The position numbers are program-made. Source: Lytechinus pictus (taxonomy: Eukaryota). From it: a stretch of DNA of 64,000 nucleotides. The DNA lies in contig NC_087251.1 in NCBI RefSeq assembly GCF_037042905.1, positions 17,050,001-17,114,000 on the forward strand, read 5' to 3'. Positions 25,901 to 34,900 of the stretch are shown here, piece by piece; position 1 is the first letter of the stretch, and each line of letters begins with the position of its first letter.

Positions 25901-28900
25901 TCATAAAGTTATGATAAAAATGTTTCTTATGTAATGTAACATAACATAATTATAATATAATATAACATTACATAATGAATAATATTTTCTTCTTTCCCAC
26001 TACGTTTCTCTTCCTTTCTCCCTCATTTCTCCTTTTCCCCCTTTCCCCGTTTTTTTTTTGGTCAGCCGATGGGGGGGGGGTGTGCCCCCCATGCCCACCG
26101 TAGTTACGCCACTGTATATGGCAAATACCCCTCCAATATTTTTTTTTTTTTTTACCCCATGATGGTTTAATGGTTTTATTAGAGATTACATTCAAATTTT
26201 TTTGACATTCCATCTTATTCCCTTCCCAAAGACCCCAACATTGATGAATTGGAAGAAACGGGGGTTTCTCTTCAATGTTATAATACGGACATAAGTATTT
26301 CGTTTGGAAATGGTGAACTGGCTCTTTATTTGCATTTTATGATTCAATAATATTGTTTTATTTGTTAAGCGGTATTTTAGGAAGAATTTTCACCAATAAA
26401 ACAATTATCTCTTGCGATTTTTTTTTCATTTCTTTCGTAAAAAGTGGGGGGATGTTTGTACAGACCACCCCCCCCCCCCCTCCTCGAAAAGTGGGGGGAT
26501 ATATCCCTCCATCCCCCCCCCCCCCGGGGATTTACGCCAGTGGAGTAGATAATTGAGAAAAGCTAATTATGCTCGATATATCTCATCTTTCTCTTGAGCT
26601 TCATCCCCTAATACTTTAGAATCAACATTATATTGAAATCAAATAACATCTCCTACTAAGGTTAAGATCAATTATTTACACAGCTAGCTATGAATACTAA
26701 GTAATTGACATTTTGGTATATTACCAACTACTAGTATGCTAACATAACTCCGTCTGCTGGTATTTCGTCAATGAACTGTTCATCAAGTGACCAAAATATG
26801 GGTAAGTAATATTATCATGTTGAACTCAGTTTCGCCCAATAACTACTATGTGTATAACCATTTCGTCCAAACAGTCCTAATTGCACAAATGAATCCAAAA
26901 TCATAGACGGAACGGCACGATGGAAAAAGAGTGAGCATTGAGTGGATAATGACTATTGTACGACTTGTAAAACTATTGGATTGGATGGCCTAGGGTTATT
27001 CAACTTTATCATATGGAATTCATAATCGTTAGACAATGTTTCTAGAAACCAATTCGACCTCTTCCTTCCTCACTTTCTCTATATCCAGCACAATCTCTTT
27101 AATATTTAGCTCTCTCTCCTCCTCCTCCTTATCTCTCTCACACACTCTCACTCTGTCACTCTTTGTATCTTAACAAGTATGGTTGTGACTAGACTTGGAC
27201 TATATCTTAAACGTTATAGAATGCACACATACAAAAGCATAATATTTCTAAGTTGTATGTTCAAATTCAATTCTTTGCGAGAATCAAGTGAAAATTAAAC
27301 TTATATGTTGTTCTAAAACAGATTGATGCTTATTAACAGTCATCTCCAGTGTATTTTAGGCCGAAACACACAATGTCAATCACAATAGATTTACATTAAA
27401 AAACGGGGCCTTATTTTAAAGGAGACAAAAATATTCTATATTGACTTGACTTAATGCCGTCACCTTCGAGCTGCTCTTCATAAACCCTCGATGTACCTAT
27501 AATCTAATCACAGTATGATAGGTCCTTCATATGCAACACAATCCGATAGTCATTACCCATAGTGTGAAAACAGTCTGGGCTGTAGCTCGATATTGGGTAT
27601 CTGATTCAGACGATGGAGAGAGAGAATCATTTTATTATATTCACATTAACTTTTCAAGTGTTCGGTTGTCAAATGAGATTTGGTAGCAGCAGAGATTAGA
27701 ATTCGTTTATTTTATTAAGTGTTATCTAAAGTAGATGTAGAAATAGGAAAGATATTGCTTTCATCGTTTTGGGATAAGACATTGATATGTATGTCGATGT
27801 ATGTATTAATTAATATCATACACTCCTATACAGTATGTTATTATTGCATTGTTATATTAATAGCTCATATTTTGTAAATCGGTCGCCCTTAGTAAAATTA
27901 TATTTTACTTTTTGGCTGCCACCACTCAGTATTTCAGGCGTATACATCGATGTGTAATACATGTATTTTAACTTTGCATCATGTTTCTTATGTATGGTTT
28001 ACTAAGAAAATAAAACATTTTGAATTTAAATATACATAACATATGCGATATTAATATTAGTAATCCGGTTATGTCACCCCTCCCCCCCCCCCCCCACACG
28101 CGCACACATACTATTACGTATCATTGATACTTGGGAATATGTCATACATTTGAAGGCAAGTGAATGCAGCAAAAAGAAGAAGCAAGTGCTTGCTCGTATT
28201 TTGGTCCCTATCTCTGTACATAAGTTTCATTTTTTGGAGTGGGGTTGAACTTTTCACGAAGAGGTACCAACAATATCCAGGTGTAGTGATTTGTTTGTCT
28301 TTGATAGAGCCAGTTTTGGATATGATCTCTGCGACTTCACAGGCTGATCGTTTGGCTTATCGGGGTCGGGCAGGATCTGGGAAGTTAACGTACGTAGTGG
28401 AGTCCGAAACGTTGTAACCCATGCTCATTATGTCAACTCAAGTTAAAATATCTTTGAAACCTTAATCTCTGATATATTTCATATATGTGTATCTGAATTT
28501 CATTTTCATATAGTAGAATATCTTCAGTTCACCATATCTAGCAAAGTATTATCTCAGATAGTACATTTACACATATTGAAGCTTTGGGGGAATTTGTGCT
28601 TATAGAACAGGGAGGGTGCTGAGAAACAAGTGAAAACTTAATCTTGGTTTGTTTCTAATGACTTCTCAATAAACTACATGTATAATTTTATAATTAAAAT
28701 CAATTACATACTTTCGTCTTGTAATTATTTTGTGCGTTTGTATATACTGTATTTTAAGTACAGATATTTTGAATGAGAAAATTGTTTCTGATTGATTATA
28801 CTATACATTTGCACATGTGCCGGAATCGGACATGCCGGACTCGGTCTTGGACTGACTGGATTCGGACACATAACTGTGTCGTTGTTGTATTTTTTTGTCA

Positions 28901-31900: not shown

Positions 31901-34900
31901 CTATAAAATAAGATATTTTTAGATGTTCTCTCTATGTATGAATTATTGGAAATGTTAATCCTACCGTTACACACAGGACAAGAATTACTTCAGTCACCTT
32001 GCTATGTATCGTTGTTTAGTTTCTTTAATGGAATTTGAACATTTTATAACTACGTTTCTTTGATCTCGTAAAAATCATTTAGTATAATAACATTGCGCGT
32101 CACATACCCGTCTACGATGAAATCATAACGAATGTCATCTTCGTATTGGGACATGGGTGTTGCCCGGCACGATCGAATGCTCAGATCAAGAGTTCCTTCG
32201 AGTGACGTCACTGATGCAGCGAAGTAGAGGTCCTCGTTGAGTCCAATCACCAGAGGATATCGTTCAACCACTTCATTGTAAGAATCATCGGTGTAGAGTT
32301 CGAAAGAGAAAGAATATTCTCCTTTCTCCTCGAGAGTCTTGTCGATGGTGTAGTCGCTCAACTGGTAGCGTACGGATTCCACGCGTTTGCTTCGGTTGTA
32401 CGAACACGTCAACGGTATATCGACGGCATACAGACGGCTGATGATCCCGTCTTCGTAACGGCTGACCACTTGATTCGTGTAAGTTTCTTCGGATGCAGAT
32501 TCCTGGAATAAAAAAAGTTACCAAGAAATGTTGGTTATTGTCTACATATAGAAATTAGATAGAAACAGAGGAAGACACAATATTTTTGACGTGCATATTA
32601 TCTAATGATTACTTGATTTCACTCCTGGACACGGTGTTTTAGGTTTTGATGGCATATCTCTTTCTCCTTACCCTTCATGGCCAGATACCAAAGAATGTGC
32701 CCCACACTGCATGATAATCTGATTATTTTAAATAGTTCCCGCAAAATGTAATGACCAACATAACTTCGATGATCGAACCGAATCAAACTAAATCAACCGG
32801 GTATTCTTCGGCATTGGTGGACCTGTCACGGCTCATACCATAAAGATCTTCAAAGCAATTAGAGGCTAATGGACGTGTATGTTCATAATTCCTTAAGCAA
32901 AAAAAAAGTAATTAAAAGAATGATCATTACCGATACTGATGTCCCACAACCTGTAAGGTTGGTAGTGAGTTCAATGATGTCCATGTTGAATTCATTGACT
33001 TCATCGATTCCCCAGCAGTCCTCATCGTCTTCAGACGCCAAAGCAAAACGAACATCGGTACCAACCATGCCACCAGTTAGGAGAGTCTTGGGAATCTCTA
33101 CGATCATCTGAGTGTCCGTACAGGTCAGGATGATTCCTTCGGTGTCAAGCTCTGAAACCGTCATGGTATGAACAGTTCATCAATAAGATTGAAATATCAA
33201 GATATCTTACACAGTAATAAGTAAATAAGCTATGGAAGTTTGCCCTTTAAAAGTACCATAGGTTGTATCACACACTCCCGTCCAACTATACCGTTTGCAC
33301 TAATCTAACATTTTCTCCACACTGTGTTTGCGGCAGGAACTCTCATGACCAAGCACGTATTGTATTTGAAGGGCAATATTTGAAATTCTTTACCATTTTT
33401 TAGCGAGTATCTTGAATAAAGTGGATTTATTGTATTGGTATATTCCCTGTTAGTCAGGGATAATTCGTTATGAGGCCTTCTATTGTTTTCGATTATGGCA
33501 ACTATTCCGATGACACTGTATCCTCATACAGCTCGTCGCAGTAGTAGGTGACGACGTCGCTGGTTTTCACCGCGCGATGGCGGTGGTTTACCTGGTGCAT
33601 TGATGCCATTCACTGGCGAGGAATTGATTATTCATCAAATTATTATATGTGTGTAATTCAATGTCTGTCGGGGCATATGTCATTCGGATTTCTACTCGAT
33701 GGTTTGTAGGGAGCAGGAACTGATCATGGAAGGCACTTACTTAGGACTGGGATGTTCTCGATAAATTTCAGGTTGTTTGGACACAGAATTACTAGTAAGT
33801 TCACGGTTTATGATAAGTACAAAACAGATTATTACATGCCCACTAAGTCAAAATATGACCATGCAATAACGTGAAGTAAAAGTTCCAAAATTTAGGTACA
33901 GAATTTTGAACCACATTCTACAAAGAATTAATATACGTCCTAGTCACCGATATTGAAAAAAATATCAAAAGCCAAGTCCAAGAAAATTACCATTGGCCGG
34001 TGTAGCGTCTTGTTCATCTTGAATAAAGCCATTGTTGGATATGATCTCTGCAAAAACACTAGATGATTGTTTGGCTTCTCGAGGTCGAGCTGGATCTGAG
34101 AAGTTTACGTAATGGAGTCCGAAACGTTCGCTGTAACCAGAAGCCCACTCGAAGTTATCCAGAAGTGACCACGCTGTATAGCCTTTGACGTCAACGCCGT
34201 CCATATTGATAGCTGGAATGGGAGAGGGAGATAGAGCGATGAAAAACTGTATAATGACGTGTTCAATATTCAAGAACAATATTTTCAGGGTGTTTGGGGT
34301 AGGCCCTGTATTATATTGAATTCTAAACGTAATATGCCTATAAGATATTGTTGTGTTTATTACCCTTTAGAAGTTCATTGATGTAAGCTGTGTAATAGTT
34401 TTGTCTGATTTCGTCATCAAGTTCGTAGATGTCAGATGTGGAAACGCCATTCTCCGTCACGTAGATGGGTACTCCATACTCTTCATAGATCCAGTTCACA
34501 AGATTGCGAAGGCCCCATGGAACAATCTTCAACCAGCTAGATCCAGAACCAGGCCAACTTTGATCCTGGTATGAACCCACATCTGAATCGGTCCAGTAGC
34601 TGGGAGGGTTGGAAAGGTATTCTGGGACAGCGAATGCATAGTTAGAAGTATAATGATTCAAACCAAAGAAGTCACTGGTTCCTATAATCCTTTCTATCTC
34701 TTCTGCTGTGAATTCAGGCAGTCGAGATTCGTTGAATCCTTGGGCAGCGCTCTTCTTGGCGATTTTGGTCTTCATGATCTCAGGGTAGTCACCTTTGAAG
34801 ACTGGATGAGCAAACCAACCGAGGTTGAACTGAAGGGCTCTATCAGATGCATCCAGACTGGTCTGGTTCGTCCTGTCCAGTGGTTCTGACCAATCAGAGT

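What the first reader, a model, noticed from the sequence alone, without database searches (positions are those of the whole stretch)
27527..34212. ZP cassette is a symmetric phase 1-1 module, and a ZP-less relic copy sits right behind it
Seen: the introns on both sides of the ZP exons (after 33991 and after 30945) are phase 1, so skipping exons 5-8 joins GH1 directly to the TM exon in frame. Downstream on the same strand, a decayed GH1-3-type exon 4 (28277-28420) is followed only ~680 bp later by a paralog of the anchor exon (27527-27600), with no ZP sequence between. Known: 1-1 symmetric modules are the classic substrate of exon shuffling in extracellular proteins. Inference: the relic records either the pre-insertion state (GH1-anchor) or a duplicate that lost ZP. 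A ZP-skipped isoform is also possible.
Basis: partly seen in the sequence, partly recalled or inferred. Interest (0 to 1): 0.65.

Follow-up and report, generated by a model that had tools for sequence, protein, structure and literature searches.

The report
ZP cassette in glycosidase gene, ZP-less relic
An invertebrate-type beta-glycosidase gene carries a four-exon ZP (filament-forming) module as an in-frame cassette between its enzyme part and its membrane anchor, and a broken partial copy just downstream has the enzyme end and the anchor but no ZP, a tidy though not unprecedented example of exon shuffling.

Summary
On the minus strand, gene B (ATG 38990, stop 30427) has four GH1 exons, four ZP exons and one TM exon. 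All its introns are GT-AG. The introns after 33991 and after 30945 are both phase 1, and exons 5-8 total 933 nt, or 311 codons.

About 2 kb past the stop lies a pseudogene fragment. Block 28280-28413 is 79-80% identical to the last two thirds of B exon 4, against 52-61% for the four other GH1 paralogs. It carries a 4-nt insertion and a TAA stop. After a 676-nt gap comes an acceptor plus a 23-codon hydrophobic tail (27600-27527). This tail matches the start of exon 9 weakly but significantly (53 of 87 nt; 0 of 1000 shuffles reach it). No ZP trace lies in the gap.

New here: the two relic pieces abut exactly on the uninterrupted C-terminus of paralog P2. The anchor is therefore probably the GH1 family's own tail, and ZP was put between enzyme and anchor.

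Whether the relic predates the insertion or lost ZP later cannot be decided without other species. The ZP-skipped isoform is in frame but untested. The window is not human.

The parts
38692..38990 (-). Gene B exon 1: ATG at 38990-38988, signal-peptide-like start ([23 protein letters not shown]...), start of the GH1 domain; the donor GTAAGT follows 38692 (phase 2).
   Evidence: sequence and translation; Pfam Glyco_hydro_1 E 4e-24, profile positions 3-59.
35231..35705 (-). Gene B exon 2: GH1, with the TFNEP acid/base motif.
   Evidence: Pfam E 2.1e-70, profile positions 59-216; translation; borders; closest solved chain 8in1_A at E 5.5e-112.
34364..34925 (-). Gene B exon 3: GH1, with the VTENG nucleophile motif; ends in phase 1.
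   Evidence: Pfam E 5.3e-43, profile positions 212-392; ENG found at residue 164 of the exon translation; borders.
33991..34212 (-). Gene B exon 4: end of GH1 plus the linker ...[11 protein letters not shown]; phase 1 on both sides.
   Evidence: Pfam E 2.3e-21, profile positions 395-453; splice table.
30945..33151 (-). ZP cassette, made of exon 5 (33151-32931, ZP-N), exon 6 (32502-32108, end of ZP-N, linker, start of ZP-C), exon 7 (31845-31743) and exon 8 (31158-30945, end of ZP-C, RRRR site, hydrophobic-patch-like FTRGPIRLV). It holds 933 coding nt and 10 Cys, and is bounded by phase-1 introns.
   Evidence: Pfam ZP-N E 2e-5, ZP-C E 5.9e-14 and 0.047; uromodulin E 4.6e-4 and GP2 E 0.067; phases; Cys and RRRR positions.
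30427..30626 (-). Gene B exon 9: linker, a 23-residue uncharged stretch (WIIASAAMAMVVMALVAMMFMVM), RKLNK and a short tail, then the TGA stop; entered in phase 1.
28280..28413 (-). Relic copy of the last two thirds of B-type exon 4. It is decayed (4-nt insertion, TAA stop).
   Evidence: blastn 79.1% over 134 nt, E 6e-27; 80.3% identity to B against 52-61% to the other paralogs; alignments.
27601..28279 (-). Spacer between the two relic pieces. AT-rich, with a G-run at 28074-28093. No ZP and no recognisable B intron sequence.
   Evidence: the G-run repeat is.
27527..27614 (-). Relic anchor exon: a pyrimidine tract and CAG acceptor, then, in phase 1, (D)TQYRATAQTVFTLWVMTIGLCCI and a stop.
   Evidence: 53 of 87 nt identical to 30640-30556, 0 of 1000 shuffles reach the score, top non-self hit in the window; peptide p 0.0015 against B exon 9 and 0.003 against the P2 tail; uncharged run of 15 residues.
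53574..53747 (+). Comparator: the uninterrupted C-terminus of paralog P2 (linker plus hydrophobic tail within its last exon). The two relic pieces abut on it.

Best explanation
Gene B encodes a secreted-pathway protein built as signal peptide, one GH1 beta-glycosidase domain with both catalytic motifs, a complete ZP module (ZP-N and ZP-C, 10 Cys), an RRRR furin-type site, a short hydrophobic patch, one transmembrane helix and a short tail.

By analogy with canonical ZP precursors, the likely working is as follows (inferred). The protein is anchored in the membrane, is cut at RRRR, and the released GH1-ZP ectodomain assembles into extracellular filaments. This would fix a glycosidase in an apical matrix or coat.

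Evolution. The GH1 genes of this tandem array carried their own C-terminal hydrophobic tail, still uninterrupted in P2 and M1. In the B lineage a phase-1 intron separated the catalytic part from the tail. A tandem duplication then gave B and a second copy, B'. The four-exon ZP cassette (phase 1-1, 933 nt) was then shuffled into that intron in B only. B' decayed to the fragment seen at 28413-27527, which therefore shows the recipient gene before the insertion.

Shown: the exon structure, phases and domains; the relic's kinship to B; the absence of ZP in the relic; and the collinearity with P2. Inferred: that exons 1-9 form one transcript, the processing and polymerisation, and the order of duplication and insertion.
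For: No other start for the ZP exons was found: the best Met-initiated hydrophobic candidate in intron 4 has a mean hydropathy of only 1.11, and no other candidate comes near it.

Gene B matches the canonical ZP precursor order of signal peptide, ZP-N/ZP-C, furin site, propeptide with hydrophobic patch, TM and short tail (passages of PMC7155028).

The relic belongs to the B lineage: 80.3% identity against 52-61% for the other paralogs. The anchor paralog is significant. It shares the acceptor and the phase with exon 9.

The anchor looks ancestral to the GH1 genes. The relic's exon-4-like tail aligns to P2 residues 2-26 and the relic anchor to residues 27-47, so they abut with no gap or overlap. 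The relic anchor against the P2 tail scores 34 against 18.2 +/- 3.9 (p 0.003). In contrast, tails of the same polar-then-hydrophobic build (M1, and B against P2) give p 0.28-0.35. P2 and M1 end in 17- and 21-residue uncharged tails inside exon 4.

Rough dating (my inference). The Jukes-Cantor distance is about 0.23 for B to relic and about 0.61 for B to P2. The duplication therefore falls in roughly the last third of B's separate history. This leaves a fair chance that the insertion came later.
Against: There is no outgroup, and insertion into B and deletion from B' predict the same two sequences. The relic has clearly suffered large losses: no exons 1-3 and no first third of exon 4. One more deletion is therefore cheap.

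Canonical ZP precursors bring their own TM and tail, so exon 9 could have arrived with ZP. B exon 9 against the P2 tail is not significant on its own (score 23, p 0.28). The link rests on the 23-residue relic peptide, tested among 10 pairs, so p 0.003 becomes about 0.03 after correction.

The spacer shows no similarity to B introns 4 or 8, so nothing positively identifies it as the ancestral intron. The differences between B and the relic are spread 11, 6 and 12 over codon positions 1-3, of 46 sites each. There is thus no sign that the ZP-less copy ever worked as a gene. No transcript evidence exists for any junction.
Confidence: 0.4

Rival explanations
1. The relic is a post-insertion duplicate that lost ZP. 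B already had GH1-ZP-TM when its 3' part was duplicated. In the decaying copy, a deletion with ends in introns 4 and 8 removed the four ZP exons, just as other deletions removed exons 1-3.
For: The relic is heavily truncated. The spacer is unrelated to any B intron, as expected after deletion and decay. On the rough dating, about two thirds of B's separate history precedes the duplication, so the prior favours insertion first. Given that both flanking exons survive, the deletion ends must lie in introns 4 and 8, so no coincidence is needed.
Against: It needs one extra event that removed all 933 coding nt without trace while sparing both neighbouring exon edges. Nothing positive supports it.
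Confidence: 0.33
2. Gene fusion rather than shuffling into an intron. A GH1 gene lost its own tail and spliced into the 3' exons of a neighbouring ZP gene. Exon 9 would then be the ZP gene's own TM exon, and the relic a later ZP-deleted copy.
For: TM plus a short tail is part of the standard ZP precursor. B exon 9 against the P2 tail is not significant (p 0.28). Reading through the exon 4 donor gives GNFLGLGF and a stop, which could be a stump of an old tail.
Against: The relic anchor, which is the paralog of exon 9, aligns to the P2 tail (p 0.003) and abuts the exon-4-like piece on P2. No other ZP-like sequence or ZP gene remnant is in the window. The read-through stump has only a 6-residue uncharged run.
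Confidence: 0.12
3. The anchor match is chance. Only an exon 4 fragment was duplicated, and the sequence at 27600-27527 is unrelated AT-rich DNA that happens to follow a CAG.
For: blastn at E<=1 and stringent Smith-Waterman miss it. tblastn gives E 5.9. Identity is only 61%. A 23-codon open frame has about a one-in-three chance of arising in random sequence (my estimate). The short query that gave 0 of 1000 was chosen after I had seen the alignment.
Against: With the whole exon as query, 4 of 1000 shuffles reach the score and it ranks first of 97 real chunks. It is the top non-self hit of 638 windows. It lies on the same strand, in the same order, with the same phase and the same CAG|ATAC start. 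Its peptide is similar to two independent tails.
Confidence: 0.1

Closest known systems
Class 1-1 module shuffling in extracellular mosaic proteins (Patthy's rule; recalled, not read here)
   Same: A protein module bounded by phase-1 introns on both sides lies in an extracellular protein. Removing it keeps the frame.
   Different: The module is spread over four exons with internal phases 0, 2 and 0, rather than being a single symmetric exon. A candidate 'empty' recipient copy lies beside it. The donor is unknown, and there is no second ZP in the window.
Canonical ZP-module precursors (ZP1-4, uromodulin, GP2)
   Same: The order is signal peptide, ZP-N/ZP-C, furin-type site, hydrophobic patch, TM and short tail (passages of PMC7155028).
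   Different: The N-terminal passenger is a whole GH1 enzyme domain. Five searches found no paper that joins GH1 with ZP. Polymerisation was not tested.
Membrane-anchored animal GH1 proteins (klotho, beta-klotho; lactase-phlorizin hydrolase recalled)
   Same: An extracellular GH1 domain is tethered by a C-terminal single-pass anchor. Klotho chains are the next-best solved matches of exon 2 (E 2e-72 to 9e-71).
   Different: There is one GH1 domain instead of two or four, both catalytic motifs are present, and a ZP module lies between the enzyme and the anchor.
akuBGL, the digestive beta-glucosidase of the sea hare Aplysia kurodai (PDB 8in1)
   Same: It is the closest solved GH1: exon 2 gives E 5.5e-112. 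The entry is tied to akuBGL by the listing and abstract of PMC10619976.
   Different: akuBGL has two GH1 domains in a 994-residue chain, and no ZP or anchor is reported. This hints at, but does not prove, a molluscan or other lophotrochozoan source for the window.

Membership tests
Glycoside hydrolase family 1 (gene B exons 1-4) | Match to the GH1 profile over its whole length | tested here: met
   Taken exon by exon, profile positions 3-59, 59-216, 212-392 and 395-453 of 453 are covered, all far above the cut-off.
Glycoside hydrolase family 1 (gene B exons 1-4) | Catalytic acid/base (T-F-N-E-P) and nucleophile (T-E-N-G) motifs (motif names recalled) | tested here: met
   WITFNEPWIV is in the exon 2 translation. 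IYVTENGVS is in exon 3. Enzyme activity was not tested.
ZP module | ZP-N and ZP-C halves | tested here: met
   PF23344 at E 2e-5 (25.3 bits against a cut-off of 24.7, so barely above). PF00100 at E 5.9e-14 in exon 6 and 0.047 in exon 8. Uromodulin E 4.6e-4.
ZP module | Conserved cysteine set (8 or 10; number recalled) | tested here: met
   There are 10 Cys in exons 5-8 (3, 2, 1 and 4). Their pairing was not tested.
ZP module | Furin-type site, hydrophobic patch and membrane anchor after ZP-C | tested here: inconclusive
   RRRR lies at residue 31 of exon 8, and exon 9 has a 23-residue uncharged stretch. FTRGPIRLV is called patch-like by eye only. Cleavage and assembly cannot be tested with these tools.
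Class 1-1 symmetric shuffled module | Both flanking introns in phase 1, and a length that is a multiple of three | tested here: met
   phase 1 after 33991 and after 30945; 933 nt.
Class 1-1 symmetric shuffled module | The same module with the same borders in unrelated genes (evidence of mobility) | not testable with these tools
   No eukaryotic genome or protein collection was open. There is no second ZP in the window.
Processed (retro) pseudogene, for the relic | Exons joined without an intron, and no splice signals | tested here: not met
   The two pieces lie 676 nt apart, and the second keeps a pyrimidine tract and CAG. A direct continuation of the exon-4-like piece into exon-9-like sequence is not significant (score 63 against null 60.5 +/- 10.3).
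Unprocessed pseudogene fragment, for the relic | Homology to a parent gene with disabling changes and missing parts | tested here: met
   A 4-nt insertion and a TAA stop. Exons 1-3 and the 5' third of exon 4 are absent.

The most novel reading that the evidence does not exclude
The locus preserves three successive states of one exon-shuffling event side by side in a single tandem array. The first is an uninterrupted GH1 tail (P2). The second is the same tail split off by a phase-1 intron (the relic B'). The third is that intron filled with a four-exon ZP cassette (B). This would give a rare 'before and after' record of how an enzyme acquired a polymerising module. A bolder add-on: the relic's still-open tail exon may serve as an alternative last exon that swaps the TM anchor for a GPI-type signal.
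Probability: 0.35. Interest if true: 0.65.

Novelty: new member of a known kind. Interest (0 to 1): 0.42.

Why it matters
Exon shuffling of phase 1-1 modules is textbook, but it is usually inferred from finished mosaic genes. Here the recipient's paralogs, and possibly its empty state, sit within 25 kb of the product. The order of events therefore becomes testable by comparing a few related genomes.

The product itself, a catalytically intact GH1 enzyme carried on a ZP module, suggests a way to fix a glycosidase in an extracellular filament or coat. I found no paper describing that domain pair. Automatic genome annotations, which I could not search, may already list it.

Tried and rejected
1. 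Processed-pseudogene origin of the relic. Rejected because of the 676-nt gap and the retained acceptor.
2. A contiguous exon-9-like continuation of the exon-4-like block (shared ACACCTGG and TTCAACCCC words). Not significant: score 63 against null 60.5 +/- 10.3, reached by 357 of 1000 shuffles.
3. A relic of exon 1 upstream. The best match lies inside the foldback element and is reached by 24 of 600 shuffles; I take it as chance. Exons 2 and 3 give nothing.
4. A separate ZP gene with its own signal-peptide exon in intron 4. No convincing candidate.
5. Repeats or mobile-element copies flanking the cassette. None in the window.
6. DNA-level similarity of the relic anchor to the tails of P2, M1, A and P1. 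Scores of 43-59 only, not tested against shuffles, and I give them no weight.
7. Rfam over the whole window: 0 matches. Pfam on 9 ORFs of the plus strand and the intergenic stretch: 0 families.
9. The paper PMC6215123 holds both Pfam-style names only through Glyco_hydro_16 and Glyco_hydro_10 and a separate Zona_pellucida row. It reports no fusion.
10. Not done:
- No search or fold of a joined (spliced) model.
- No comparison with other eukaryotic genomes or protein sets.

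
Full report
**Source and limits**

The window has no N and a G+C content of 0.31-0.42. It holds five four-exon single-domain GH1 genes, plus thrombospondin and P450 exons. I do not take it for human. It looks like an invertebrate genome. The closest solved GH1 is the sea-hare enzyme akuBGL, PDB 8in1 (exon 2, E 5.5e-112; entry identified from the listing and abstract of PMC10619976).

No eukaryotic genome or protein collection was open. 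The orthologous locus, the wider spread of this domain pair and all transcript evidence therefore stayed unchecked.

**The array**

tblastn with each gene B exon finds five GH1 genes:
- P1, plus strand, 10718-13829;
- M1, minus strand, 22669-19244;
- B, minus strand, 38990-30427;
- A, minus strand, 43171-40406;
- P2, plus strand, 50131-53651.

It also finds one extra exon-4-like hit at 28419-28279 (E 9e-12).

The C-termini differ. P1 stops right after the GH1 domain. P2 and M1 run on, inside exon 4, through a polar linker into 17- and 21-residue uncharged tails and then a stop. I read these tails as GPI-signal-like, but did not test that. A has a non-hydrophobic read-through. Only B has further exons.

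**Gene B**

- All borders are GT-AG.
- The phases are: exon 1 out 2; exon 2 out 0; exon 3 out 1; exon 4 out 1; exon 5 out 0; exon 6 out 2; exon 7 out 0; exon 8 out 1; exon 9 ends in a stop.
- The coding lengths (299, 475, 562, 222, 933 and 200 nt) sum to 2691 nt, a multiple of three. Without the cassette the sum is 1758 nt, also a multiple of three.
- Pfam, exon by exon, gives GH1 over profile positions 3-453. It gives ZP-N in exon 5 (just above the cut-off), ZP-C in exon 6, and weakly the end of ZP-C in exon 8.
- Exon 6 also matches the ZP modules of uromodulin and GP2.
- Both GH1 catalytic motifs are present.
- The cassette has 10 Cys. Exon 8 carries RRRR followed by a short hydrophobic stretch. 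Exon 9 carries a 23-residue uncharged segment, basic residues and a short tail.
- This is the order described for canonical ZP precursors (passages of PMC7155028), with a whole enzyme as the N-terminal passenger.
- Intron 4 holds no convincing separate start exon for the ZP part.
- That exons 1-9 form one transcript remains an inference.

**The cassette**

The introns after 33991 and after 30945 are both phase 1, and joining 33991 to 30626 makes the codon G|AT. No single ZP exon is symmetric, so the unit of exchange is the set of four. The cassette begins within a few residues of the first ZP-N cysteine. It ends after the furin site and hydrophobic patch but before the TM segment.

**The relic, piece one**

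Window 28280-28413 matches 33999-34128 at 79% identity, E 6e-27. Over the same columns it is 80.3% identical to B, against 55.3, 60.6, 56.2 and 52.3% for P1, P2, M1 and A. B itself is 57-59% identical to those four. The relic therefore split from B well after B split from the others.

It has a 4-nt insertion and a TAA where B has GAA. The first ~84 nt of exon 4 and exons 1-3 have no counterpart between 28414 and 30426. A weak exon 1 match falls inside a foldback element and is at chance level. The differences from B are spread 11, 6 and 12 over codon positions 1-3, so there is no sign of long coding constraint.

**The relic, piece two**

The anchor paralog is real but weak. Standard searches miss it. 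Under permissive scoring it is the best match of exon 9 downstream of piece one:
- score 129, reached by 4 of 1000 dinucleotide shuffles;
- first of 97 real chunks of the window, with the next at 115.

With the acceptor and the first 80 nt as query (chosen after I had seen the alignment):
- score 113 against 59.7 +/- 7.9, reached by 0 of 1000 shuffles;
- top non-self hit of 638 windows;
- 53 of 87 columns identical.

Both copies begin CAG|ATAC in phase 1. In that phase the relic reads 23 codons ending in a 15-residue uncharged run and a stop.

**Nothing between the two pieces**

The 676-nt spacer has no ZP trace by tblastn. DNA alignment against each ZP exon and each B intron gives nothing (all nine comparisons lie within shuffles). 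Pfam finds 0 families in 10 ORFs.

**What the paralogs add**

As peptides, the relic tail resembles B exon 9 (score 32 against 16.7 +/- 3.4, p 0.0015) and the P2 tail (34 against 18.2 +/- 3.9, p 0.003). The other 8 of 10 tail pairs give p > 0.27, including pairs with the same polar-then-hydrophobic build.

Aligned piece by piece to P2's uninterrupted C-terminus, the relic's exon-4-like tail covers P2 residues 2-26 and the relic anchor covers residues 27-47. The two pieces, 676 nt apart in the relic, are thus directly adjacent in P2. B's pieces map to residues 3-25 and, weakly, 30-41.

I read this as follows. The anchor is the GH1 family's own C-terminal tail. The B lineage carries an interruption exactly where P2 has none, and the ZP cassette sits in that interruption. 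The support is modest, because the peptides are short and the p values shrink after correction for ten pairs.

**Order of events**

Insertion into B after the duplication and deletion from the copy after it predict the same pair of sequences, so the window cannot decide.

For insertion later:
- it needs no extra event;
- an intron of the right phase is what shuffling requires;
- the relic shows exactly that arrangement.

For loss:
- the relic is demonstrably eroded by large deletions;
- on a rough Jukes-Cantor reading (0.23 against 0.61), about two thirds of B's separate history lies before the duplication.

I put pre-insertion at about 0.4 and later loss at about 0.33. A fusion with a ZP gene's own TM exon gets about 0.12, and a chance anchor match about 0.1.

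**Isoform**

Skipping exons 5-8 is in frame. It would give a type I membrane GH1, comparable in layout to klotho-type proteins. Nothing here shows that it happens.

**Literature**

Five full-text searches found no paper that joins GH1 with a ZP module. The one paper holding both Pfam-style names lists them for different transcripts. A search for exon shuffling, ZP domain and phase 1 together found none. The 1-1 rule for extracellular modules is cited from memory.

**Verdict**

The finding is a sound and neatly documented case of a known process, with a new domain pair and a possible 'empty site' beside it. Interest is moderate. It would rise if other genomes showed that the relic predates the insertion.

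Noticed in passing
10718-13829 (+), 22669-19244 (-), 43171-40406 (-), 50131-53651 (+): Four further GH1 genes form a tandem or inverted array with gene B. Their C-termini differ: P1 has no tail, P2 and M1 have hydrophobic GPI-signal-like tails inside exon 4, and A has a polar read-through or an unseen further exon.
   Followed up: partly
51946-52233 and 52579-52899 (+): In P2 the counterpart of B exon 3 is split into two blocks about 345 nt apart. P2 therefore seems to have an extra intron, and intron presence varies among these paralogs.
   Followed up: no
35705-34364 versus 21844-20237; 34210-34129 versus 13638-13719 and 53439-53520: Gene B is a mosaic. Exons 2 and 3 are closest to M1 (80.0% and 75.6% DNA identity). 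The 5' part of exon 4 is closest to P1 and P2 (80.5% and 79.3%) and less close to M1 (70.7%). This suggests gene conversion or unequal exchange in the array.
   Followed up: partly
29080-29898: A foldback element with 356-nt arms (84% complementary) and a 107-nt loop lies between gene B's 3' end and the relic. It may mark the rearrangement that truncated the relic. Its ORFs have no Pfam hit.
   Followed up: partly
28074-28093 and 29939-29958; also 26440-26525: An identical 20-nt G-run word lies in the relic spacer and again just past gene B's 3' UTR. Related C/G-runs lie at 26440-26525. These may be fragments of a dispersed repeat.
   Followed up: no
34004-33999 and 30625-30620; relic around 28285-28277: The word TACACC (coding Thr-Pro) lies at both exon edges that flank the cassette. 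The relic's exon-4-like end reads TACACCTGG, identical to the start of exon 9. This could be microhomology or merely a Thr/Pro-rich linker. I estimate it is not significant.
   Followed up: partly
33990-33965 (-): If the exon 4 donor is not used, the frame runs on for 8 codons (GNFLGLGF) to a stop. This would give a secreted GH1 without ZP or anchor.
   Followed up: no
3-365 and 1050-1481 (+): These are exons of a thrombospondin-type gene: a TSP type 3 repeat and the TSP C-terminal region (E 5.6e-27).
   Followed up: partly
61917-62399 (+): This is the first coding exon of a cytochrome P450 gene (Pfam p450, E 2.7e-14, profile positions 1-86).
   Followed up: partly
15435-17107 and 45700-47641: Both stretches hold long ORF-like repeats with recurring peptide words (for example ...FFLLLHDRS.GVLRALAVVVD.RTNSRWS, and ...IPPRMFPN...). 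The ORFs sent from them to Pfam have no family, so they are probably repeats or mobile-element remains.
   Followed up: partly
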